IMG/VR virus record: IMGVR_UViG_3300014890_000018
Location: 1 to 27,387 of that record
DNA: 27,387 nt
Source of the DNA: a virus
Lineage: Duplodnaviria > Heunggongvirae > Uroviricota > Caudoviricetes
Strand: one strand, 5' to 3'
Part shown: positions 3,079-26,864 of the stretch, one piece after another
How the letters are laid out: each line of letters starts with the position of its first letter
Position numbering within the stretch: the first letter of the stretch is position 1
Translations under genes and position numbers: made by a program
The notes under the pieces: generated by a model
Seen by the model: only the letters and a program-made list of their open reading frames with translations
What the model was told of the DNA's origin: nothing
The model's database searches: none

Positions 3079-3193
3079 AAAAACCACCGTTTAATGTGCA
3101 TGAAGAACCACCTTAGTATGGGGTTCACCATGCATATTAAACCATATATGAATAGTTATTACCTCTACATCAATTAAATCACTATCATATAAA

Positions 3194-5779
3194 TTACATC
3201 TGGTTATTAATTTTCATTTCAATATTTTTAATGCGCTCAACCAATCCTCGCATAATGAAACGATCAAGTTCTTGATCTCGGAATTGCCACAAATCTCCTG
3301 CTTTCTTAACTAATTTTTTTTCACCAGTACTCACAGGAATAATGAATTTTTCACCATTTTGATCCGTAATTAACTCATCTTTAATGACATCTTCATATAC
3401 ATCATCCCATTTGTCATACCCTATAAATCCATAATCTCGCCAGTCCAGGCCCTCATCCTCTAAAACAGCAATAACTGCCTGAACAGTGGTGCCAGAGTGC
3501 AACCTTTTAGAATCATCATCAATCCATGTCCAGAAACCTAGCAGATCAGCCACTTTAATTGCTGCATTAATTTCAGATTTGGTGAATCCGCGAATCGGGT
3601 CTTTAAGACGCCCATCTGAACTTGACTGGGTTCCTCCGGCAAAATAACCAATGTTATATCGTAGTGATGCGCTACCTATATTTGAAGTGGCATCAGTTCC
3701 AGGAGTTATTCCTCCTGACGTTGCTATTTGCATTGCTGGAGTAGATCCAGACCCACCATGTCTGAACTGTAATTGACCTACACTGTTGTATTGTGTTCTC
3801 ATGAACCAAGATGTAGCATTGCCATTACTGAGCAGGCCAAGAATAGCATCAGAACCAGATGGAGCCGATACAGTGTACATTCCTGTCTTAGTGAGTGACG
3901 TCATGGTTTCTCCATCCTTGCTGACCAATAGTCTGTCGGAGCTTGCATCCATCATCACTTTCCATCCTGTAGACCCATCAGCAGCATTCTTCGTAAACTG
4001 AATTGATGCGTCACCAATATTCCCATCAGAGCCAAGAATTGCAACGGTATAACCGCCTGCTGGGTCTTTACCCACAACTCCAAATCTACCGTTTAGCGGA
4101 TCGCCTGAAACTATTATTTTTACAGGAATCACTCCGGCAAAATTGTCATTAAATATCTGAGAAATATAATTCATGCGCATGCCATAAAAACTAACGCCTC
4201 TCTTTACATTCTCAGAACCAATAAAAGTCGGAATATCTGAATTTGTAATACCATAAGGTGATTGCTCTACCACACCACCATAAAACTGGATGTTGGATGC
4301 GTGATCAAATTCTAATGCATGATTAGCTCTGGTTCTAAACTCACAGCCATAAAAGTAATGCCCATTTATTTCAGCGGATGTCGCATTAACATCACCATCT
4401 ATATAAAGGCATCGCCATGTGTTTGCGCTAGAGTAATAAGAAACAAGCTCTTCATGAGACATTGATGCACGACTGTGGTGATCAAGGGTATAAATACCAC
4501 ATTTATCTACTCTAGTTCCGCTGAGACCATAACTTGCAGGCCCAGTGTTTGAACCAAGAATTGCTAAACCGACTCGCCCCATAGTTGACCCACCAGTAAT
4601 GGTATTGTAATCAGGGTCATCGTTTCCTTGCTTTGACTGAATTATTGTACCTGCTTTTGAAAAGTATCCGAATACACAAACATCCTCCTGAAGATTTCTT
4701 GCAGAGTCATCGTAATAAACCCCACACTCATAATCTGCACGTTGGTCTTCATCAGGTTTTGTGTGATTACCGATGGAATCATAACAAATCATGTCTTGAA
4801 CCACGGCAATGCCTTTAAGGACAGATCCACTTGAACCATATTCTGGAGAAAGAACTCTCACGCAATATCGAACACTTGCGAAATGATCGTCTCTGTTATC
4901 TGTAGTAGCTATCTTTGTTCCTGCTCCAGAAAATATAAACGTAGCACCAGGCATATTTTCTTTTCTACCTTCAGCAAGAAAGAATTTGTCATCATCAGTA
5001 CCAAATCCAAGAACAGGAGAACCATTACCAATGAATCGAAAATCACCAGGTATTTCTATACCATCAGAGAATCGATAAACCCCATCAGGAACAAAAAAAG
5101 TTTTCTTTCCAGATGCAAGCAAAGCCTGCCACTGCGTTAAGTTGTCCGTTTTATAGTCACCTTTTAATCCAAAATCGGTTATGCTGACTGTATCTCGCAT
5201 CTTATCCTGGAACGTTCGATATATCGCACCAGAACCATACTGAATAAACCAACCAAAACCACCAACAACTCCGGCGATTGCAGCATCAACATAATTACGC
5301 ATTGAGCGATTATTTACAGCATCCTGCTCAAGTGATGGATCTGCAAGGTTAGAAATTCTGTTTTGCTTTGCATCGTAATATTTTGCAAGCAAAGATGGTT
5401 TCATCAATGCACGTCTGAACCACCCAAAACATTGCTGGATCAGCATCGTCAGGTAGTCAAAAGCATCTTCATGCACTTCGGGGAAAAATTTTCCCTGATT
5501 GCGAAGGTCTGTCTCCTGCACTACATCAAGCACACGATCTATCGTAATTCGCCATCCAGCAGCAAGCGGCGACGGAAGAACAACAGAACCGCCACTATAA
5601 GTGCCCGCCCCAGTTACCGTATAACCGGTATCCAGAACCAATTCTGTTACGTTCCCGTTCAGGTCAGACACCTGAACAACCAGGTCGGATTTTTTGAAAA
5701 TACGGAAGGTATACGGAAATGATGTCGTAGCGCCGTTACCGGTGTATTCGTTGTGGTCAACTTCGGTTGAGACCGTCAT
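3194..5779 (-). CDS. Tailspike / tail fibre: conserved N-terminal anchor, low-GC central domain (probable glycan depolymerase), C-terminal intramolecular chaperone (peptidase S74-like)
   Basis: 861 aa. N-terminus (MTVSTEVDHNEYTGNGATTSFPYTF...) matches the conserved N-terminal domain of podovirus tail fibres/spikes. C-terminal ~135 aa follow a SSDGRLKD motif, the S-D-x-R-x-K autocleavage signature of S74 chaperone domains. RBS GGAG 7 nt upstream. Strong AT-shift over roughly 3.2-5.5 kb versus the 5' end. Confidence 0.85.
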   Translation of the reverse strand: MTVSTEVDHNEYTGNGATTSFPYTFRIFKKSDLVVQVSDLNGNVTELVLDTGYTVTGAGTYSGGSVVLPSPLAAGWRITIDRVLDVVQETDLRNQGKFFPEVHEDAFDYLTMLIQQCFGWFRRALMKPSLLAKYYDAKQNRISNLADPSLEQDAVNNRSMRNYVDAAIAGVVGGFGWFIQYGSGAIYRTFQDKMRDTVSITDFGLKGDYKTDNLTQWQALLASGKKTFFVPDGVYRFSDGIEIPGDFRFIGNGSPVLGFGTDDDKFFLAEGRKENMPGATFIFSGAGTKIATTDNRDDHFASVRYCVRVLSPEYGSSGSVLKGIAVVQDMICYDSIGNHTKPDEDQRADYECGVYYDDSARNLQEDVCVFGYFSKAGTIIQSKQGNDDPDYNTITGGSTMGRVGLAILGSNTGPASYGLSGTRVDKCGIYTLDHHSRASMSHEELVSYYSSANTWRCLYIDGDVNATSAEINGHYFYGCEFRTRANHALEFDHASNIQFYGGVVEQSPYGITNSDIPTFIGSENVKRGVSFYGMRMNYISQIFNDNFAGVIPVKIIVSGDPLNGRFGVVGKDPAGGYTVAILGSDGNIGDASIQFTKNAADGSTGWKVMMDASSDRLLVSKDGETMTSLTKTGMYTVSAPSGSDAILGLLSNGNATSWFMRTQYNSVGQLQFRHGGSGSTPAMQIATSGGITPGTDATSNIGSASLRYNIGYFAGGTQSSSDGRLKDPIRGFTKSEINAAIKVADLLGFWTWIDDDSKRLHSGTTVQAVIAVLEDEGLDWRDYGFIGYDKWDDVYEDVIKDELITDQNGEKFIIPVSTGEKKLVKKAGDLWQFRDQELDRFIMRGLVERIKNIEMKINNQM

Positions 5780-5832
5780 GTTAAATCTCCAGATAGTCGC
5801 AGCACCCGTTGCGCCGCATATCTGGTTATTCT

Positions 5833-5896
5833 ATTACCTGAAAAACCACATATGGATAGATAACCCATAAATACGAAAAGATATTACCTTTCAGGT
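5833..5896. promoter_or_regulatory. Divergent regulatory region A (between the tailspike and the SOS-regulated ORF) carrying the same two motifs as region B
   Basis: AACCACATATG at 5844-5854 and ATTACCTTTCAGGT at 5883-5896, same order and orientation as in region B (spacing 28 vs 40 bp). Confidence 0.5.
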
Positions 5897-5935
5897 GATT
5901 TGCAAAACGTGCTGGATAGCAAACAAATTATTTGA

Positions 5936-5955
5936 TACTGTATATTTATACAGTT
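5936..5955 (+). promoter_or_regulatory. LexA (SOS) box, 18/20 match to consensus
   Basis: TACTGTATATTTATACAGTT versus consensus TACTGTATATATATACAGTA; CTGT-N8-ACAG core intact; lies 20 bp upstream of the ATG at 5975, in the divergent region between the tailspike and the small plus-strand ORF. Confidence 0.75.
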
Positions 5956-5974: not shown

Positions 5975-6232
5975 ATGCAGCAGTATCACTATCCACTGGA
6001 AGACGGATTTACCGAAAGGATTCACACGCCGGGAGGCGTCAGGTCACTGGTGGAGGGATCGCACTTGATGAAATTACTCCGGGATCTCGATAAGGATGGA
6101 TTTAATGTCGATGGCCCACTTGCCGAACTGACTGCACTGATTAACTACGTCACCAGCTCACAGATGTCTATGCAGGATCTGCAAACACATCTCGACTATT
6201 GTGCCGAACAATTACGAAAGCAAACCACATAA
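5975..6232 (+). CDS. SOS-regulated small protein (85 aa), function unknown; candidate antirepressor or SOS-induced accessory protein
   Basis: ATG at 5975 with GGAG 8 nt upstream (the track start at 5957 is a TTG); LexA box just upstream; opposite orientation to all flanking structural genes. No motif I recognise. Confidence 0.55.
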   Translation: MQQYHYPLEDGFTERIHTPGGVRSLVEGSHLMKLLRDLDKDGFNVDGPLAELTALINYVTSSQMSMQDLQTHLDYCAEQLRKQTT

Positions 6233-6254
6233 AGAAAAGGCCGCGAAAGCGGCC
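6231..6254 (-). terminator. Rho-independent terminator for the minus-strand secreted-protein gene; hairpin also abuts the stop codon of the plus-strand small ORF
   Basis: Perfect stem ggccgc / gcggcc with GNRA-type loop gaaa at 6239-6254; on the minus strand it is followed by TTTTCTTT (6238-6231). On the plus strand no U-tract follows. Confidence 0.65.
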
Positions 6255-6255
6255 T

Positions 6256-6267
6256 GTGACATGTCAC
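6256..6267. repeat. 12-bp perfect palindrome GTGACATGTCAC, copy 1 of 3
   Basis: Exact string; identical copies at 23979-23990 and 26244-26255; each sits beside an intrinsic-terminator hairpin at a junction between gene modules. Confidence 0.8.
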
Positions 6268-6268
6268 G

Positions 6269-6829
6269 CTACATTGATATATGATTCATAAAGTAGCTTA
6301 GAGATTTACTTCCCAGAAAAGAAATTTCTTTTCCTGGATATGTCGCAATAATTGAGCATGACTTATCCCCGTTAGAGGTAACAAATCCTGAATAACCTAC
6401 TTGTTCTTTACCATTTTGTTGCTTGGCTAAAAAGTAGAGGTAGCTTATCTTTTTGCCCTCTGGGTAAAACTCTGCCAAACCAGTATCGGTGATTGAATAT
6501 TTTATTCTCCCGCCTTGAGTAACGTTTTCCATCTCAAGTTTAGCTATGTCTTTTCTGTTGTATTCAGCATTGATTTTCCTTTCGAAATCAATGTTGTTTT
6601 CAAATGAGTAGGAAGCAACAGTCTGAATAGATGGGAACACGTTTATCTGGATGCCTCCACAGTCGGCACAGGTATAAAGGTATGAATCAGATGGAATCCC
6701 CATAAAAGAAAACTGAGTTACCTTAAATTTATCGCTATCTCCAAAGTATTGAAGTTCGCATTTAACATTTTGCCCTGCAAAAGAAAATGCAGACATTAAT
6801 ATTGAAACAAAAAATATAATTGCCTTCAT
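6269..6829 (-). CDS. AT-rich moron encoding a secreted (signal-peptide) protein of unknown function, 186 aa
   Basis: Signal peptide MKAIIFFVSILMSAFSFAG, no lipobox; four Cys in the mature part; markedly AT-rich versus the upstream virion genes; starts 2 nt after the stop of the 850-aa gene; followed by terminator and palindrome. Confidence 0.65.
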   Translation of the reverse strand: MKAIIFFVSILMSAFSFAGQNVKCELQYFGDSDKFKVTQFSFMGIPSDSYLYTCADCGGIQINVFPSIQTVASYSFENNIDFERKINAEYNRKDIAKLEMENVTQGGRIKYSITDTGLAEFYPEGKKISYLYFLAKQQNGKEQVGYSGFVTSNGDKSCSIIATYPGKEISFLGSKSLSYFMNHISM

Positions 6830-19001: not shown

Positions 19002-19994
19002 TTACACCACGCGGGCTTCTGTTTCCAGAAGCGCATCAGTTTCACGGATTGGTACACCACGGAATGAAGTCCACCACTCGCCTTCTGTCTCTTTTACGCT
19101 GATCGCCAGAGATGTTTTCTCCAGAGATTGCAGATCAAGAGCCTGGCCTACAGTGCGGTTCATGTAGAACACCGGGCGACCCATGCCACGGTTTGGAATG
19201 CGATGCAGTGCTTTAACCATCAACTTCGCAATATTTGCGGCAGAGGAAGGTTCTGAAAGATTGCTGACATCGATGTTTGCAATGCGAACAACATAACGCC
19301 AGTCACGCAGAGCAAGTCCGTTGTCCCATTTGTAATGGGTACGGTAGCCTTCGTACTTGCCGCCATTAGCATCTTCCAGTGTCACCTGGCCTTTATCTTC
19401 CATCTGGATGCCAGCCTTCTGCCCTTTCGGGAAGATGCCATGCACGGTGTTTTCGCCCCACACCACTAACCAGATTGAGGTGTTATCTGTACCCGTGCCA
19501 CCAGCATCAATGATGTTCTGAGCATTACCCGCAGACAGGCTGGAATAGCGGGAGGACAGTCCCATAAACTGCTGAGGGTTAACGCTGGAATCACCATAAA
19601 ACAACGTCTGCGCCATCTGCTGATTCATCGCTTCAATAAATGCGCGGTCTTCAGACAGGCGGAATTCGGCGGTATTACCGTTCAGATCAGCCAGTGACTT
19701 ATCGACTTCAGCATAGGTTTCCAGCATTCCAACGTAATCGGTGACCTGCACTGTGGTTGATTTGCTTGGCTGTACGCCATAGTTCAGCAAACGCCAGGTG
19801 GCTGAAGGTAAACCAGAACGAATGGTGGTTCGGTGTCCGGTAGGAAGGTTCCCTTCGACAAAAGGCATATCCTGAAGGATCGGGTTAGTTTGACCGAGAA
19901 GCTCGATAATCTTATCGACTTTCCCGTTTGGATCGACGCGCTTACCCCAGTCAGCCAGCGTTAGCGCAGTTAAGCCTTTAACAGCCATTGTCAT
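19002..19994 (-). CDS. Major capsid protein (330 aa)
   Basis: Directly downstream of the scaffold gene; strong RBS GAGAGGAA; size typical of HK97-fold podovirus coat proteins; followed by a hairpin. Confidence 0.8.
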   Translation of the reverse strand: MTMAVKGLTALTLADWGKRVDPNGKVDKIIELLGQTNPILQDMPFVEGNLPTGHRTTIRSGLPSATWRLLNYGVQPSKSTTVQVTDYVGMLETYAEVDKSLADLNGNTAEFRLSEDRAFIEAMNQQMAQTLFYGDSSVNPQQFMGLSSRYSSLSAGNAQNIIDAGGTGTDNTSIWLVVWGENTVHGIFPKGQKAGIQMEDKGQVTLEDANGGKYEGYRTHYKWDNGLALRDWRYVVRIANIDVSNLSEPSSAANIAKLMVKALHRIPNRGMGRPVFYMNRTVGQALDLQSLEKTSLAISVKETEGEWWTSFRGVPIRETDALLETEARVV

Positions 19995-22687: not shown

Positions 22688-22894
22688 TTACTGACCAAGT
22701 AGCGTTTTACCGCTGGTATTAGCGGTTGATGTGTCGCCCTGAGAACCGGTAAGCAGCGTAGAACTACGACCAGCAGCAGCGCGACGACGACGTGTTTCTT
22801 CGTCGCGGGCATCAACAACGGCGGCATCCTGCTCCTGTGGTGCTGCCTGAACTTCTGGTGTTGCAGGCACTGATGGTGAGCTACCCATGCACAT
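22688..22894 (-). CDS. Possible small ORF upstream of portal (68 aa), low-complexity
   Basis: ATG preceded by the same 11-nt translation-initiation sequence as the portal gene (GGAGTCATTGA + 1 nt + ATG); its stop overlaps the portal RBS. Protein is low-complexity, so coding status is uncertain. Confidence 0.35.
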   Translation of the reverse strand: MCMGSSPSVPATPEVQAAPQEQDAAVVDARDEETRRRRAAAGRSSTLLTGSQGDTSTANTSGKTLLGQ

Positions 22895-22922
22895 ATCAAT
22901 GACTCCGTACGCAATTAAATTA

Positions 22923-22998
22923 TTACCAATTTAACCACATATGATTTATTTATCGTAGATAGTTGACATTTAACGCACAAATTATTACCTTTCAGGTA
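22923..22998. promoter_or_regulatory. Divergent regulatory region B (between the portal unit and the tRNA cassette) carrying the shared motifs AACCACATATG and ATTACCTTTCAGGT
   Basis: AACCACATATG at 22934-22944; ATTACCTTTCAGGT at 22985-22998 containing the inverted repeat TACCT-TTC-AGGTA; TTGACA at 22964-22969 on the plus strand; minus strand reads TTGTGC-N17-TACGAT (promoter-like). Confidence 0.5.
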
Positions 22999-23049
22999 AG
23001 CAAAGAGTTCATTCCGGTTATTAACCTGACTGGCTTGTCGTTAAATTGA

Positions 23050-23321: not shown

Positions 23322-23398
23322 GTGGCATTAGCTCAGCTGGACAGAGCAACCGCCTTCTAAGCGGTTGGTCGCAGGTTCGAATCCTGCATGCCACGCCA
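23322..23398 (+). tRNA. tRNA-Arg (anticodon UCU, reads AGA), phage-encoded
   Basis: 77-nt cloverleaf read by hand: acceptor GTGGCAT/ATGCCAC, D-stem GCTC/GAGC, anticodon stem ACCGC/GCGGT with loop CTTCTAA (anticodon TCT), T-stem GCAGG/CCTGC with loop TTCGAAT, discriminator G, encoded CCA. Resembles the enterobacterial argU tRNA but differs in the stems. Confidence 0.9.
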
Positions 23399-23441: not shown

Positions 23442-23483
23442 GGCGGTGATGGTTTCCCTTGAAGGACTATCACCGCCCTTTTT
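23442..23483 (+). terminator. Rho-independent terminator after the tRNA
   Basis: 9-bp stem ggcggtgat / atcaccgcc with an 18-nt loop, followed by cTTTTT. Confidence 0.5.
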
Positions 23484-23978: not shown

Positions 23979-23990
23979 GTGACATGTCAC
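23979..23990. repeat. 12-bp perfect palindrome GTGACATGTCAC, copy 2 of 3
   Basis: Exact string 5 nt after the stop of the 125-aa ORF and 4 nt before a terminator hairpin; between the convergent 125-aa ORF and TerL. Confidence 0.8.
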
Positions 23991-25540: not shown

Positions 25541-26133
25541 TGATTGCCATCCTGACGTTCTTTCAGTCTCTTCCTGGCTGCCGCTATGCGATCAGCAATT
25601 GTCACATTCACATTAACATCCAGGCGTTCTTTGAATGCGTTGACGTCGACGTGCTTACCAATCAGTTCGAGGTTCTTCACCTTGTCAGGCCATTTAATTT
25701 TTTTGAGGATTGTCTCTATCGAATCCTCGTTCATGTTCATGATGGTCGATGACAGATCAAAGCCACTAAGCGTAGTGCGCCAGATTTTCGGCCACTCGCG
25801 GATTGGCTTAAGGCTCCCATCGTCGTTGAGGATGTCGATCACGTCCATCTGGTCGATCTCCACCAGGCGCATGAGAACGTAATCAGCACTGACGCGCATT
25901 CGTTTGTTGCGCTCCTCCATCAACTCGGCAATCCGTTTTTGAATGCGTTCATCGCGCATCATGACACTGGCTTTAACTGCCGCTGTATTTGGGGAGAATC
26001 CTGCGTTAATCGCTGCCTGAGTCTGGTTTTCAGGCGTTTTGATGTATGACTGGCAATAAGCCTCCTGCATTGCTGTTAGTGGCTTAAATTGCGTTGATTT
26101 GCGTTTATAGGTTTTAGGTTCAGCAGGCATCAT
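25537..26133 (-). CDS. Terminase small subunit (about 198 aa from ATG at 26133)
   Basis: N-terminal helix-turn-helix segment AMQEAYCQSYIKTPENQTQAAINAGFSPNTAAVKASVMM is typical of small-terminase DNA-binding domains; directly upstream of and overlapping TerL. The track start at 26211 is a TTG inside the upstream terminator/repeat region; ATG at 26133 (or 26130) preferred. Confidence 0.8.
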   Translation of the reverse strand: MMPAEPKTYKRKSTQFKPLTAMQEAYCQSYIKTPENQTQAAINAGFSPNTAAVKASVMMRDERIQKRIAELMEERNKRMRVSADYVLMRLVEIDQMDVIDILNDDGSLKPIREWPKIWRTTLSGFDLSSTIMNMNEDSIETILKKIKWPDKVKNLELIGKHVDVNAFKERLDVNVNVTIADRIAAARKRLKERQDGNQ

Positions 26134-26140
26134 AACCACC

Positions 26141-26169
26141 GTGGTAATAGTTACCGTTGTGGTAATAGT
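26141..26169. repeat. Two direct repeats of GTGGTAATAGT, 18 bp apart, just upstream of the TerS start
   Basis: Exact 11-mers at 26141-26151 and 26159-26169, between a minus-strand terminator and the TerS ATG. Confidence 0.7.
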
Positions 26170-26243: not shown

Positions 26244-26255
26244 GTGACATGTCAC
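26244..26255. repeat. 12-bp perfect palindrome GTGACATGTCAC, copy 3 of 3
   Basis: Exact string overlapping the stop codon of the 112-aa gene and about 40 bp from the terminator hairpin upstream of TerS. Confidence 0.8.
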
Positions 26256-26590
26256 ACTATTAATTTCGTTTCATGCCAGCCTTTAGTCACCCAGCATTGC
26301 GAGTCACCATTACACGGGCATGAATTAACTGGCACTCTCTCGCCGCACTTACCGCAACGTTTTCTGCTGATCGATTTTATACGCCCGCGCACGCGTGCAT
26401 CATCCTGGCGGATCAGTAACGCTATATACTCACCAAATTCGTAAGGCGCACGCCCGGGGCGACGCGCGGCACAGTTACGCTCCAGCATTTCAATTTCCTG
26501 AGCATCAAGCACAATCTCCAGTTTACGCACACCAGATGCAGCTTGTCTGGCTCTCTGAGCGGCTTTGCGCTCTGCTGCTGATTTAGCCAT
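26252..26590 (-). CDS. Hypothetical small protein with C-terminal Cys-rich (zinc-ribbon-like) motif, 112 aa
   Basis: ATG at 26590 (the track start at 26593 is a TTG); basic N-terminal helical region; C-terminal CGKCGERVPVNSCPCNGDSQC cluster; overlaps the upstream ASCH-like gene. Confidence 0.5.
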   Translation of the reverse strand: MAKSAAERKAAQRARQAASGVRKLEIVLDAQEIEMLERNCAARRPGRAPYEFGEYIALLIRQDDARVRGRIKSISRKRCGKCGERVPVNSCPCNGDSQCWVTKGWHETKLIV

Positions 26591-26864
26591 CAATATTTAC
26601 CTTTATCGCGAACACCTTTACCGGTTTATCTCCGAAGTGCGGATGTGTGATTGTCTTGATTTCATATCCGTCATACGGGACGTCAATTCTGCGGCTGGAA
26701 TCGTCGCGCTTCGGATATCCCTTTGTGATAATCAGGCGGTCATGCTTACGGTTAACGAGGCGCTTTTTCCAGTAGTCATTAACAAGGCGATACTCTTCCG
26801 TTTTCTCTCCGCGAATCATGGCATCGAAGTATTCACCTTTGACGGCAAGTTGCAGGTTAGCCAC
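26583..26864 (-). CDS. ASCH-domain-like protein (93 aa from GTG at 26864)
   Basis: Contains GEKTEEYR, matching the GxKxxExR signature of ASCH domains; the track start at 26948 is a TTG far upstream; the GTG at 26864 has RBS AAGGGG 6 nt upstream. Confidence 0.5.
   Translation of the reverse strand: MANLQLAVKGEYFDAMIRGEKTEEYRLVNDYWKKRLVNRKHDRLIITKGYPKRDDSSRRIDVPYDGYEIKTITHPHFGDKPVKVFAIKVNIDG

What the first reader, a model, noticed from the sequence alone, without database searches (positions are those of the whole stretch)
5833..5896. Second copy of the shared AACCACATATG / ATTACCTTTCAGGT module, upstream of the tailspike
Recorded separately so the tailspike copy can be tested on its own. Here the module lies between the tailspike start (5779) and the LexA box (5936), so the tailspike and the SOS-regulated ORF may share or compete for one control region.
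Basis: seen in the sequence. Interest (0 to 1): 0.45.

Follow-up and report, generated by a model that had tools for sequence, protein, structure and literature searches.

The report
Repressor-controlled promoter cassette of the tailspike gene
The repeated "module" is real: it is a conserved control cassette in an epsilon15/phiV10-type prophage, made of a prophage-repressor operator, a second palindrome of unknown binder and a likely promoter, and it probably keeps the tailspike gene silent until the SOS-induced antirepressor next door inactivates the repressor.

Summary
The window is an epsilon15/phiV10-type temperate podovirus (Uetakevirus). The module splits into three elements.

1. 5883-5899, ATTACCTTTCAGGTGAT. 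This is one copy of the 17-bp palindrome ATTACC-N5-GGTAAT. The epsilon15 GenBank record already annotates it as a repressor site at the orthologous position. In relatives the same motif flanks the repressor gene at OL and OR.

2. 5844-5857, AACCACATATGGAT. This is a degenerate copy of a second, 14-bp palindrome (AACCATATATGGTT, "M2"). M2 recurs at every lytic promoter I examined except PR. Its binding factor is unknown.

3. 5833-5838, a repressor half-site. It abuts an invariant -10-like hexamer (TAGAAT on the minus strand, 5828-5833), with TCCATA 17 nt upstream, inside M2.

Element spacing is fixed while the spacers diverge freely, both in 8 phages from four host genera and in 34 distinct metagenomic variants.

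The most likely function is a tailspike promoter held off by the tetrameric repressor Rep. The LexA box belongs to the divergent antirepressor gene ant, so LexA would affect the tailspike in trans (LexA, then Ant, then Rep), not by competing in cis. Rep binding and the transcription start are inferred, not shown.

Novelty is modest: the operator is known and M2 is unassigned.

The parts
5883..5899 (.). Distal operator O: ATTACCTTTCAGGTGAT, a 17-bp dyad of the ATTACC-N5-GGTAAT class with 1 mismatch. Putative binding site of the prophage repressor Rep.
   Evidence: 1 mismatch; 4 such sites in the window against 0.03 expected. The orthologous site in epsilon15 is annotated protein_bind 'repressor/lysogeny'. 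11 of 17 columns are invariant in 8 phages.
5844..5857 (.). M2 element: AACCACATATGGAT (minus-strand sense ATCCATATGTGGTT), a degenerate copy of the 14-bp palindrome AACCATATATGGTT. Binding factor unknown.
   Evidence: 10 of 14 columns are invariant in 8 phages. The motif recurs at PL and upstream of gp42, gp45, gp3, the tailspike and the lysis operon, and is absent from OR.
5833..5838 (.). Proximal operator half-site ATTACC (minus-strand GGTAAT), abutting the -10 hexamer.
   Evidence: GGTAAT is invariant in the 8-phage alignment and present in 32 of 34 distinct IMG/VR variants.
5828..5833 (-). Predicted -10 hexamer of the tailspike promoter (TAGAAT).
   Evidence: Natural variants are TAGAAT 23, TAAAAT 5, TAAACT 4 and TACAAT 2. 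Only positions 3 and 5 vary, and the register is kept even where the half-site is lost.
5851..5856 (-). Predicted -35 hexamer (TCCATA here, TTCATA in most relatives), 17 nt upstream of the -10 and inside M2.
   Evidence: TTCATA 17, TCCATA 15 of 34. It is weak in this window (3 of 6), and the consensus scan did not flag it.
5780..5821 (-). Predicted 5' untranslated region of the tailspike mRNA. Contains a GC-rich hairpin and the Shine-Dalgarno sequence (GGAG; plus-strand CTCC 5787-5790).
   Evidence: The window sequence folds at -20.9 kcal/mol, pairing CCAGAUA with UAUCUGG at the ribosome-binding site. The start site itself is inferred.
3194..5779 (-). Tailspike gene (861 aa).
   Evidence: Annotated as tailspike or tail fiber in the relatives.
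5913..5955 (+). Likely ant promoter (TGGATA 5913-5918, 17 nt, TACTGT 5936-5941) with the LexA box 5936-5955 over the -10 and start site.
   Evidence: Sequence. CTATCCAGCA and the LexA box are conserved in 8 phages, with a constant 17-nt spacing read by eye in the window and epsilon15.
5975..6232 (+). ant, the small antirepressor (85 aa).
   Evidence: Matches PDB 5D50 chain E 'Anti-repressor protein' at E = 1.3e-47. SPC32H annotates the ortholog as ant.
6238..6255 (.). G+C-rich hairpin lying between the convergent ant gene and the upstream late operon. Likely terminator for both; only its minus-strand reading was flagged by the scan.
   Evidence: minus-strand reading. The orthologous stem-loop is annotated as a terminator in epsilon15.
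22984..23000 (.). Copy 2 (region B), distal operator O: ATTACCTTTCAGGTAAG.
   Evidence: The orthologous epsilon15 site 2931-2947 is annotated as a repressor site.
22933..22946 (.). Copy 2, M2 element (AACCACATATGATT).
22917..22927 (-). Copy 2, half operator GGTAAT (22922-22927) fused to the -10-like hexamer TAATTT (22917-22922). It lies upstream of the 68-aa gp3-like gene (22688-22894) and the portal operon.
   Evidence: GGTAATAATTTAA is invariant in 8 phages and nearly so in 27 distinct IMG/VR variants.
22963..22991 (+). Copy 2 only: divergent plus-strand promoter TTGACA (22963-22968), 17 nt, TACCTT (22986-22991). Its -10 lies inside operator O. It points toward tRNA-Arg at 23322-23398.
   Evidence: GTCAA and its distance to O are invariant in 8 phages. 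This accounts for the 12-nt longer spacer.
3140..3163 (.). Third, truncated cassette upstream of the lysis operon: M2 (AACCATATATGAAT, 3140-3153) plus a half operator ATTACC (3158-3163).
26132..26166 (.). Two adjacent O operators (ATAACCACCGTGGTAAT and GTTACCGTTGTGGTAAT) directly upstream of the small-terminase start codon at 26130.

Best explanation
The module is the operator-promoter cassette of the tailspike gene in an epsilon15/phiV10-type prophage.

Read in the direction of the tailspike (minus strand), it contains:
- a full operator for the prophage repressor Rep (5899 to 5883)
- a 25-nt spacer of fixed length but free sequence
- the M2 palindrome (5857 to 5844), whose promoter-distal part supplies a weak -35 (TCCATA)
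- 5 nt
- a Rep half-site GGTAAT fused to a -10 hexamer TAGAAT (5838 to 5828)
- a leader of about 42 nt ending at the tailspike ATG.

Proposed mechanism:
1. In the lysogen, the tetrameric Rep occupies the distal operator with one pair of DNA-binding domains. With the other pair it contacts the half-site at the -10, bending the 50 bp between them and excluding RNA polymerase.
2. After DNA damage LexA leaves the box at 5936-5955, and the adjacent, divergent ant gene is expressed.
3. Ant takes Rep off the DNA. This promoter fires, as do the same cassettes in front of the portal operon and the lysis operon.

Shown here: the elements, their fixed geometry, their conservation, their recurrence at other operon starts, and the homology of Ant and of the relatives' Rep to the solved SPC32H proteins.

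Inferred: Rep binding at this site, bridging to the half-site, the promoter and its start site, and any role of M2. I take M2 to be the site of a second, still unidentified phage regulator that overlaps the core promoter.
For: Identity of the phage:
- The window is 97-99% identical here to phiV10, TL-2011b and ZX5, and about 76% identical to epsilon15 and SPC32H.

The operator:
- The epsilon15 record annotates ATTACCTGTAAGGTAAT at the orthologous position as a repressor binding site. It marks six further copies of the same motif.
- My scans find the motif flanking the rep gene at OL and OR, and at every operon start, in phiV10, epsilon15, SPC32H, Tyrion and BUCT711.

Conservation:
- In the 8-phage alignment the pairwise identities are: operator 0.84, M2 0.86, GGTAATAGAAT 0.94, and the 25-nt spacer 0.48.
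- The spacer has no invariant column and no indel.
- In an IMG/VR sample, 34 distinct tailspike-type cassettes all have the same spacing. The -10 varies only as TA[G/A/C]A[A/C]T.
- A lineage that lost the half-site keeps TAAAAT in register in front of its tailspike.

The proteins:
- Ant matches 5D50_E.
- phiV10 Rep matches 5D50_A, with the N-terminal helix NLVNRW conserved.
- Rep of SPC32H is a tetramer whose paired domains sit about 100 A apart, with a tetramerization fold linked to DNA looping (PMC9986798; PMC9638917).

Other support:
- Overexpressing the repressor of the close relative ZX5 cut holin transcripts by 99.97% (PMC9782041).
- A G+C-rich terminator hairpin and the antisense ant gene separate the tailspike from the upstream late operon.
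Against: - No Rep-binding or transcript-mapping data could be read. The three primary papers are not in the library.
- The rep gene lies outside the window.
- The -35 is weak in this window (TCCATA, 3 of 6). The consensus promoter scan did not report the site.
- The proximal GGTAAT is only a half-site. It is inverted relative to the full proximal operators at PL and upstream of gp45.
- The 50-bp spacing here differs from the 62 bp seen at PL, gp45 and gp3, so helical phasing is not the same.
- The distal operator lies upstream of both core promoters (about -70 for the tailspike, about -57 for ant). Alone, that is an unusual position for a repressor.
- M2 has no assigned binder.
- A conserved palindrome next to the terminators hints at regulated read-through. 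Read-through could also feed the tailspike.
Confidence: 0.62

Rival explanations
1. The cassette is under positive control. M2, centred near -30 of promoters that lack a good -35, is the binding site of a phage-encoded late activator. The same protein would repress the early promoters, where M2 fills the spacer, and so act as an early-to-late switch. Rep operators would only add lysogenic silencing.
For: - The tailspike and gp3 promoters have poor -35 hexamers (TCCATA, ATCATA), yet M2 there is almost invariant.
- At PL and upstream of gp45, M2 sits exactly in the 17-nt spacer of good promoters: TTGACA-17-AATTAT and TTGATT-17-TTTAAT (reading).
- M2 is absent from OR.
- A conserved small protein with a ribbon-helix-helix-like N-terminus and a Cys-rich C-terminus is encoded as the last early gene before terS. 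It belongs to phrog_536, annotated 'transcriptional regulator'.
Against: - The position of M2 relative to the -10 differs between promoters (0, 7 or 10 nt). That is odd for an activator and typical of a site that simply overlaps the promoter.
- In most relatives TTCATA-17-TAGAAT is already a usable sigma-70 promoter.
- No protein is linked to M2. All 766 homologs of the candidate are unnamed.
Confidence: 0.22
2. The operator at 5883-5899 serves the divergent ant promoter, for example as Rep feedback on its own antirepressor. The tailspike has no promoter of its own and is transcribed by read-through from the upstream late operon.
For: - The operator ends only 13 nt upstream of the ant -35.
- In region B the equivalent operator covers the -10 of a divergent plus-strand promoter.
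- The palindrome GTGACATGTCAC sits next to three terminators, including the one upstream of ant and the tailspike. It could mark regulated read-through.
Against: - The tailspike copy has no -35 for a divergent promoter over the operator, and the 25-nt spacer has no invariant column.
- The invariant GGTAATAGAAT and M2 lie on the tailspike side, in a fixed register with each other.
- The -10-like hexamer varies exactly as a -10 should.
- Read-through would have to cross a strong terminator and run antisense through ant.
Confidence: 0.12
3. The repeat is not regulatory. It is a chance AT-rich match, a recombination scar at a mosaic boundary, or an RNA element in the tailspike leader.
For: - Tailspike genes are exchanged between these phages.
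- One E. coli prophage remnant has a deletion junction at the edge of M2.
Against: - No shuffle reached the observed match counts.
- The pattern of conserved elements with fixed spacing and free spacer sequence holds across four host genera.
- Rfam finds nothing.
- RNAalifold finds no shared structure over M2.
- The elements lie upstream of the predicted start site.
Confidence: 0.04

Closest known systems
Repressor binding sites annotated in the epsilon15 genome record AY150271.2 (sites 19895-19911 upstream of the tailspike and 2931-2947 upstream of gp3)
   Same: They are orthologous in position and orientation and carry the same 17-bp dyad, ATTACC-N5-GGTAAT. The same two operons are involved.
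   Different: The window copy has one mismatch (GGTGAT). The record marks only the full palindrome. It does not mark M2, the half-site, any promoter, or the extra sites I find at OR and upstream of the lysis operon. The IHF site annotated next to it in epsilon15 is not conserved here.
Rep-Ant-LexA antirepression system of Salmonella phage SPC32H (Kim and Ryu 2013; Kim et al. 2016; PDB 5D50 and 5D4Z)
   Same: The window's ORF 5975-6232 is Ant, matching 5D50_E at E = 1e-47. A LexA box sits in front of it. The Rep of the closest complete relatives matches 5D50_A. Rep is a tetramer that Ant disassembles.
   Different: As far as I could read (secondary sources only), those studies concern the switch itself. 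PMC9986798 states that the mechanism of gene repression by Rep is not well characterised. Rep operators in front of structural-gene operons, and M2, are not described in anything I could access.
Lambda OL/OR operators and CI-mediated looping
   Same: Both use 17-bp dyad operators that overlap promoter hexamers. Both repressors act as higher oligomers that can hold two sites at once.
   Different: There is no tripartite array at this locus, only one full site and one half-site 50 bp apart. Operators sit directly in front of the late structural and lysis operons, so these appear to be repressed directly rather than only through a cascade. Induction is by an antirepressor, not by repressor cleavage.
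Rco of plasmid pLS20 (tetrameric HTH repressor looping two operators 75 bp apart)
   Same: It has an N-terminal HTH and a C-terminal tetramerization fold also seen in SPC32H Rep. Two operator regions a few helical turns apart flank divergent promoters.
   Different: Rco sites are multiple direct 8-bp repeats, whereas these are single palindromes. Looping by Rep has not been shown.
Mycobacteriophage L5 gp71 'stoperators' (from my own knowledge, not tested here)
   Same: In both, many copies of the repressor site are spread across the genome, including the late region.
   Different: L5 sites are asymmetric 13-mers inside transcribed regions and block elongation. Here the sites are palindromes placed at promoters in intergenic DNA.
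Phage P1 late promoters, which have a -10 plus an inverted repeat near -22 recognised by the activator Lpa (from my own knowledge; a lead only)
   Same: A palindrome replaces or overlaps the -35 and spacer region of several late promoters of one phage.
   Different: There is no sequence similarity and no Lpa homolog was identified. M2 also occurs inside strong early promoters and at variable register.

Membership tests
Uetakevirus Rep operator (ATTACC-N5-GGTAAT) | 17-bp dyad matching the consensus half-sites | tested here: met
   5883-5899 matches 11 of 12 specified positions. The window holds 4 sites with at most 1 mismatch, against 0.03 expected in shuffles.
Uetakevirus Rep operator (ATTACC-N5-GGTAAT) | Orthologous to a site annotated as repressor-binding in a reference genome | tested here: met
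   It aligns column for column with epsilon15 19895-19911, annotated protein_bind 'repressor'.
Uetakevirus Rep operator (ATTACC-N5-GGTAAT) | The same motif forms the operators flanking the repressor gene (OL, OR) | tested here: met
   There are two or three copies on each side of rep in phiV10, epsilon15, SPC32H, Tyrion and BUCT711.
Uetakevirus Rep operator (ATTACC-N5-GGTAAT) | Cognate repressor encoded by the same element | tested here: inconclusive
   The rep gene lies outside the 27-kb window. Complete phages 97-99% identical in this region encode a Rep that matches 5D50_A, with the helix NLVNRW conserved.
Uetakevirus Rep operator (ATTACC-N5-GGTAAT) | Rep protein binds the site | not testable with these tools
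   This needs a gel shift, footprint or ChIP. The primary papers were not available.
Sigma-70 promoter (for the tailspike) | -35 and -10 hexamers 16-18 nt apart | tested here: inconclusive
   TCCATA-17-TAGAAT scores 8 of 12 in the window and 9 of 12 (TTCATA) in most relatives. This is below the threshold of the scan.
Sigma-70 promoter (for the tailspike) | Natural variation spares the critical -10 positions (T1, A2, T6) | tested here: met
   Across 34 distinct variants the hexamers are TAGAAT, TAAAAT, TAAACT and TACAAT, all in the same register. The register holds where the half-site is lost.
Sigma-70 promoter (for the tailspike) | Mapped transcription start | not testable with these tools
   No transcript data are available.
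LexA (SOS) box acting on the module in cis | CTGT-N8-ACAG overlapping the regulated promoter | tested here: not met
   The box at 5936-5955 overlaps the ant promoter only. It is 37 nt from the operator and about 125 nt from the predicted tailspike start. No LexA-like sequence lies within 5828-5899.
Lambda-type tripartite operator | Three adjacent operator copies overlapping divergent promoters | tested here: not met
   There is one full site plus one half-site 50 bp apart.
Known RNA family in the leader | Match to an Rfam model or a conserved secondary structure | tested here: not met
   The only Rfam hit in the window is the tRNA. RNAalifold finds no shared structure across M2.

The most novel reading that the evidence does not exclude
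M2 (AACCATATATGGTT) is the operator of a second, unidentified Uetakevirus regulator. That regulator would sit on the core of every lytic promoter except PR: PL and the promoters upstream of gp42, gp45, gp3, the tailspike and the lysis operon. Together with a Rep tetramer bridging operators 50-62 bp apart, it would give this phage group a distributed two-key control of each operon, in place of a lambda-like cascade. The second key would possibly double as the early-to-late switch.
Probability: 0.3. Interest if true: 0.6.

Novelty: new member of a known kind. Interest (0 to 1): 0.38.

Why it matters
This prophage family is common: the intergenic region occurs in 528 of 5,426 complete E. coli genomes. 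Its members (phiV10, SPC32H) are used as reporter and biocontrol phages.

How its late genes are switched on has not been worked out in anything I could access. The cassette gives a concrete, testable map:
- which bases should bind Rep
- where the tailspike, portal-operon and lysis promoters should start
- an unassigned palindrome that marks all lytic promoters except PR.

It also predicts that SOS control reaches the tailspike through Ant and Rep, not through LexA binding nearby. If the Rep tetramer really bridges a full site and a half-site across a promoter, that would give the 'noncanonical' SPC32H repressor structure a defined DNA target geometry.

Tried and rejected
1. Primary papers. 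I tried to read Kim and Ryu 2013, Kim et al. 2016 and Kropinski et al. 2007 by DOI and PMC id. None is held, so operator biochemistry rests on the GenBank annotation and on secondary citations.

2. Heteroimmunity test. I asked whether the operator changes with the repressor while M2 stays. It was uninformative. All relatives fetched, from E. coli, Salmonella, Enterobacter and Klebsiella, share both motifs.

3. Searches with Ant and gp3 in IMG/VR. They returned only near-identical loci.

4. Rep's second HTH as the M2 reader. Pfam's significant HTH_3 hit lies in Rep's middle domain, residues 106-147. But its recognition helix is not conserved between phiV10 and SPC32H, while M2 is. I judge this unlikely.

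5. The Cro-like protein as the M2 reader. There is no M2 at OR, so this is unsupported but not excluded.

6. The gp49-like regulator. There is no Pfam, NCBIfam or PDB hit, and all 766 homologs are unnamed.

7. The IHF site annotated in epsilon15 inside the spacer. It is not conserved: the 25-nt spacer has no invariant column.

8. An RNA element. Rfam and RNAalifold were both negative.

9. An alternative minus-strand promoter with the operator in its spacer (TTGCAA-16-TATCTT). It scores only 8 of 12 and is not conserved in region B.

10. By-eye comparison of M2 with sigma-54, CRP, DnaA-box and IHF consensus sequences. No convincing match.

Full report
**What the window is.** BLAST of both module copies shows an epsilon15/phiV10-type temperate podovirus (genus Uetakevirus).
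- It is 97-99% identical to phiV10, TL-2011b, ZX5 and HEMP4.
- It is about 76% identical to epsilon15 and to SPC32H and its Salmonella relatives, and 71-79% identical to Enterobacter and Klebsiella members.
- The late genes run on the minus strand. Their order is terminase, a tRNA-Arg on the plus strand, a 68-aa gp3-like gene, portal, the structural genes, then the tailspike (3194-5779), then lysis (annotations).
- The plus-strand ORF 5975-6232 is the small antirepressor Ant. It matches PDB 5D50 chain E at E = 1.3e-47 and is annotated ant in SPC32H.

**The observation.** Shuffles never reach the observed counts. The two copies differ by 12 nt of spacer. The LexA box TACTGTATATTTATACAGTT at 5936-5955 and the tailspike start at 5779 are also confirmed.

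**Element 1, the operator.**
- ATTACCTTTCAGGT is the first 14 nt of a 17-bp palindrome, ATTACCTTTCAGGTGAT (5883-5899). Its class is ATTACC-N5-GGTAAT.
- The epsilon15 GenBank record annotates the orthologous sequence as a repressor binding site. It does the same upstream of gp3, upstream of terS, three times beside the repressor gene, and once upstream of the RuvC-like gene.
- Scanning five complete genomes, I find the motif on both sides of the rep gene (OL and OR) and in front of essentially every operon.
- In the window, sites with at most one mismatch lie at 5883, 22984, 26132 and 26150. Shuffles give 0.03.
- The Rep of the closest complete relative matches the solved SPC32H repressor. It conserves the N-terminal helix NLVNRW although the proteins are only about 42-45% identical overall. 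That fits the shared operator.

**Element 2, M2.**
- AACCACATATG is part of a 14-bp near-palindrome. Its best copies read AACCATATATGGTT.
- It occurs next to operators at PL and upstream of gp42, gp45 (or the RuvC-like gene), gp3, the tailspike and the lysis operon. Most hits elsewhere are weaker two-mismatch matches inside genes.
- It is absent from OR.
- At PL and upstream of gp45 the layout is operator, 27 nt, M2, 4 nt, operator, so the operators are 62 bp apart. There M2 exactly fills the 17-nt spacer of good promoters: TTGACA-17-AATTAT and TTGATT-17-TTTAAT.
- At the lysis operon it overlaps the -35 of TTAACC-17-TATAAT.
- Its register relative to the -10 is therefore not constant. That argues it is a protein binding site overlapping the promoters rather than a promoter element.

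**Element 3, the half-site and -10.**
- In the tailspike and gp3 copies, M2 is followed after 5 nt by GGTAAT, one operator half, fused to a -10-like hexamer.
- In an alignment of eight phages from four host genera, GGTAATAGAAT, M2 and the operator are nearly invariant, with pairwise identities of 0.94, 0.86 and 0.84.
- The 25-nt spacer between operator and M2 has no invariant column, 0.48 identity and no indel.
- A pattern scan of IMG/VR returned 34 distinct tailspike-type and 27 distinct gp3-type cassettes, each with one fixed spacing.
- The hexamer varies only as TAGAAT, TAAAAT, TAAACT or TACAAT.
- The hexamer 17 nt upstream is TTCATA or TCCATA.
- A divergent lineage has lost the half-site but keeps TAAAAT in register in front of its tailspike.
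- This is how a -10 behaves, so I place the tailspike promoter at 5856-5851 (-35) and 5833-5828 (-10), with a start near 5821. The start is inferred.

**Why copy 2 has a longer spacer.** Region B contains a perfect TTGACA on the plus strand (22963-22968), 17 nt before TACCTT, which lies inside the operator. TTGAC and its distance to the operator are invariant in all eight phages. This divergent promoter points at the tRNA-Arg gene. The tailspike copy has nothing equivalent.

**Mechanism.**
- Secondary sources state that SPC32H Rep binds DNA as a tetramer.
- Its DNA-binding pairs come from different dimers.
- One tetramer suffices for repression.
- Ant breaks the tetramer.
- The paired domains lie about 100 A apart on a tetramerization fold associated with DNA looping.
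- A full operator plus a half-site 50-62 bp apart, bracketing a promoter, fits that protein.
- In the close relative ZX5, repressor overexpression lowered holin transcripts by 99.97%. That is consistent with control of late operons, direct or indirect.
- The LexA box overlaps the likely ant promoter (TGGATA 5913-5918, 17 nt, TACTGT 5936-5941). It is too far from the tailspike promoter to act on it directly. I therefore expect the coupling to run LexA, then Ant, then Rep.

**What remains open.**
- Rep binding, bridging and the start site are inferred.
- The half-site is inverted relative to the proximal operators at PL and gp45, and the 50-bp spacing is not in phase with 62 bp.
- M2 has no binder. 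Rep's middle HTH_3 domain is unlikely, because its recognition helix is not conserved. The Cro-like protein and the conserved gp49-like small regulator remain candidates.
- M2 could be a negative site or a late activator site.
- A third palindrome next to terminators leaves room for regulated read-through into the tailspike.

**Comparison and verdict.** The operator part is already annotated in epsilon15, and the Rep-Ant-LexA switch is known from SPC32H. This locus is therefore a new member of a known kind. Two features are not described in anything I could access: the cassette architecture and the unassigned M2 palindrome. Interest is moderate to low for the finding as stated. It would be higher if M2 proves to be a second global regulator site.

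Noticed in passing
window 6256-6267, 23979-23990, 26244-26255: A third perfect palindrome, GTGACATGTCAC, occurs three times in the window against 0 expected. Each copy lies near a terminator-like hairpin at an operon end, two of them directly abutting one. One copy overlaps the stop codon of the gp49-like regulator gene. It is followed by TATATT, a hairpin read by eye, and then the two operators at the terS start. That layout recalls lambda Q, PR' and tR'. The three positions are conserved in phiV10, epsilon15, SPC32H and Tyrion, and largely in BUCT711.
   Followed up: partly
window 22963-22991 (+), 23322-23398: A conserved plus-strand promoter, TTGACA-17-TACCTT, has its -10 inside the Rep operator. 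It points at tRNA-Arg(tct) about 330 nt downstream, with a terminator at 23442-23477. The tRNA therefore appears to be repressor-controlled.
   Followed up: partly
window 26132-26166: Two adjacent Rep operators sit immediately upstream of the small-terminase start codon (26130), downstream of a terminator-like hairpin that I read by eye in the sequence.
   Followed up: partly
window 3140-3163: The lysis-operon cassette is truncated here: M2 plus only a half operator, about 30 nt after the tailspike stop. phiV10, epsilon15 and SPC32H carry O-antigen modification genes and a full operator at this place.
   Followed up: partly
window 5780-5822 (-): The predicted tailspike leader folds into a stable hairpin (-20.9 kcal/mol). 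Its basal stem pairs CCAGAUA with UAUCUGG at the ribosome-binding site. Relatives seem to keep a CCAG/CUGG pairing, but the alignment-based fold did not recover it.
   Followed up: partly
window 5817-5827: CATATCTGGTT on the plus strand is an inverted copy of the M2 half at 5844-5854. The two arms bracket the -10 and half-site. It is present in the E. coli lineage and degenerate in the Salmonella phages.
   Followed up: partly
L005 32087-32671 (phiV10 rep), L166 33739-34335 (SPC32H rep): Pfam's significant HTH_3 match in Rep lies in the middle 'dimerization' domain (residues about 105-150). The N-terminal DNA-binding domain gives only a sub-threshold YdaS/Cro-like hit. Rep thus carries two HTH-like domains.
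   Followed up: partly
window 26252-26593 (-): The gp49-like protein (112 aa) has a ribbon-helix-helix-like N-terminus and a CxxC...CxC C-terminus. It belongs to phrog_536, annotated 'transcriptional regulator'. It has 766 homologs across Enterobacteriaceae prophages, all unnamed, and no PDB or Pfam match.
   Followed up: partly
L293 2501-2579 (E. coli AST205 chromosome): A prophage remnant joins the tailspike, plus 79 bp of its upstream region ending at the edge of M2, to a truncated replication protein P gene.
   Followed up: no
window 6269-6829 (-) versus L003 and L005: The window lacks the Bro-N antirepressor insertion that phiV10 carries downstream of ant. It has a 186-aa gene of unknown function (phrog_11983) at the end of the late operon instead.
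   Followed up: no
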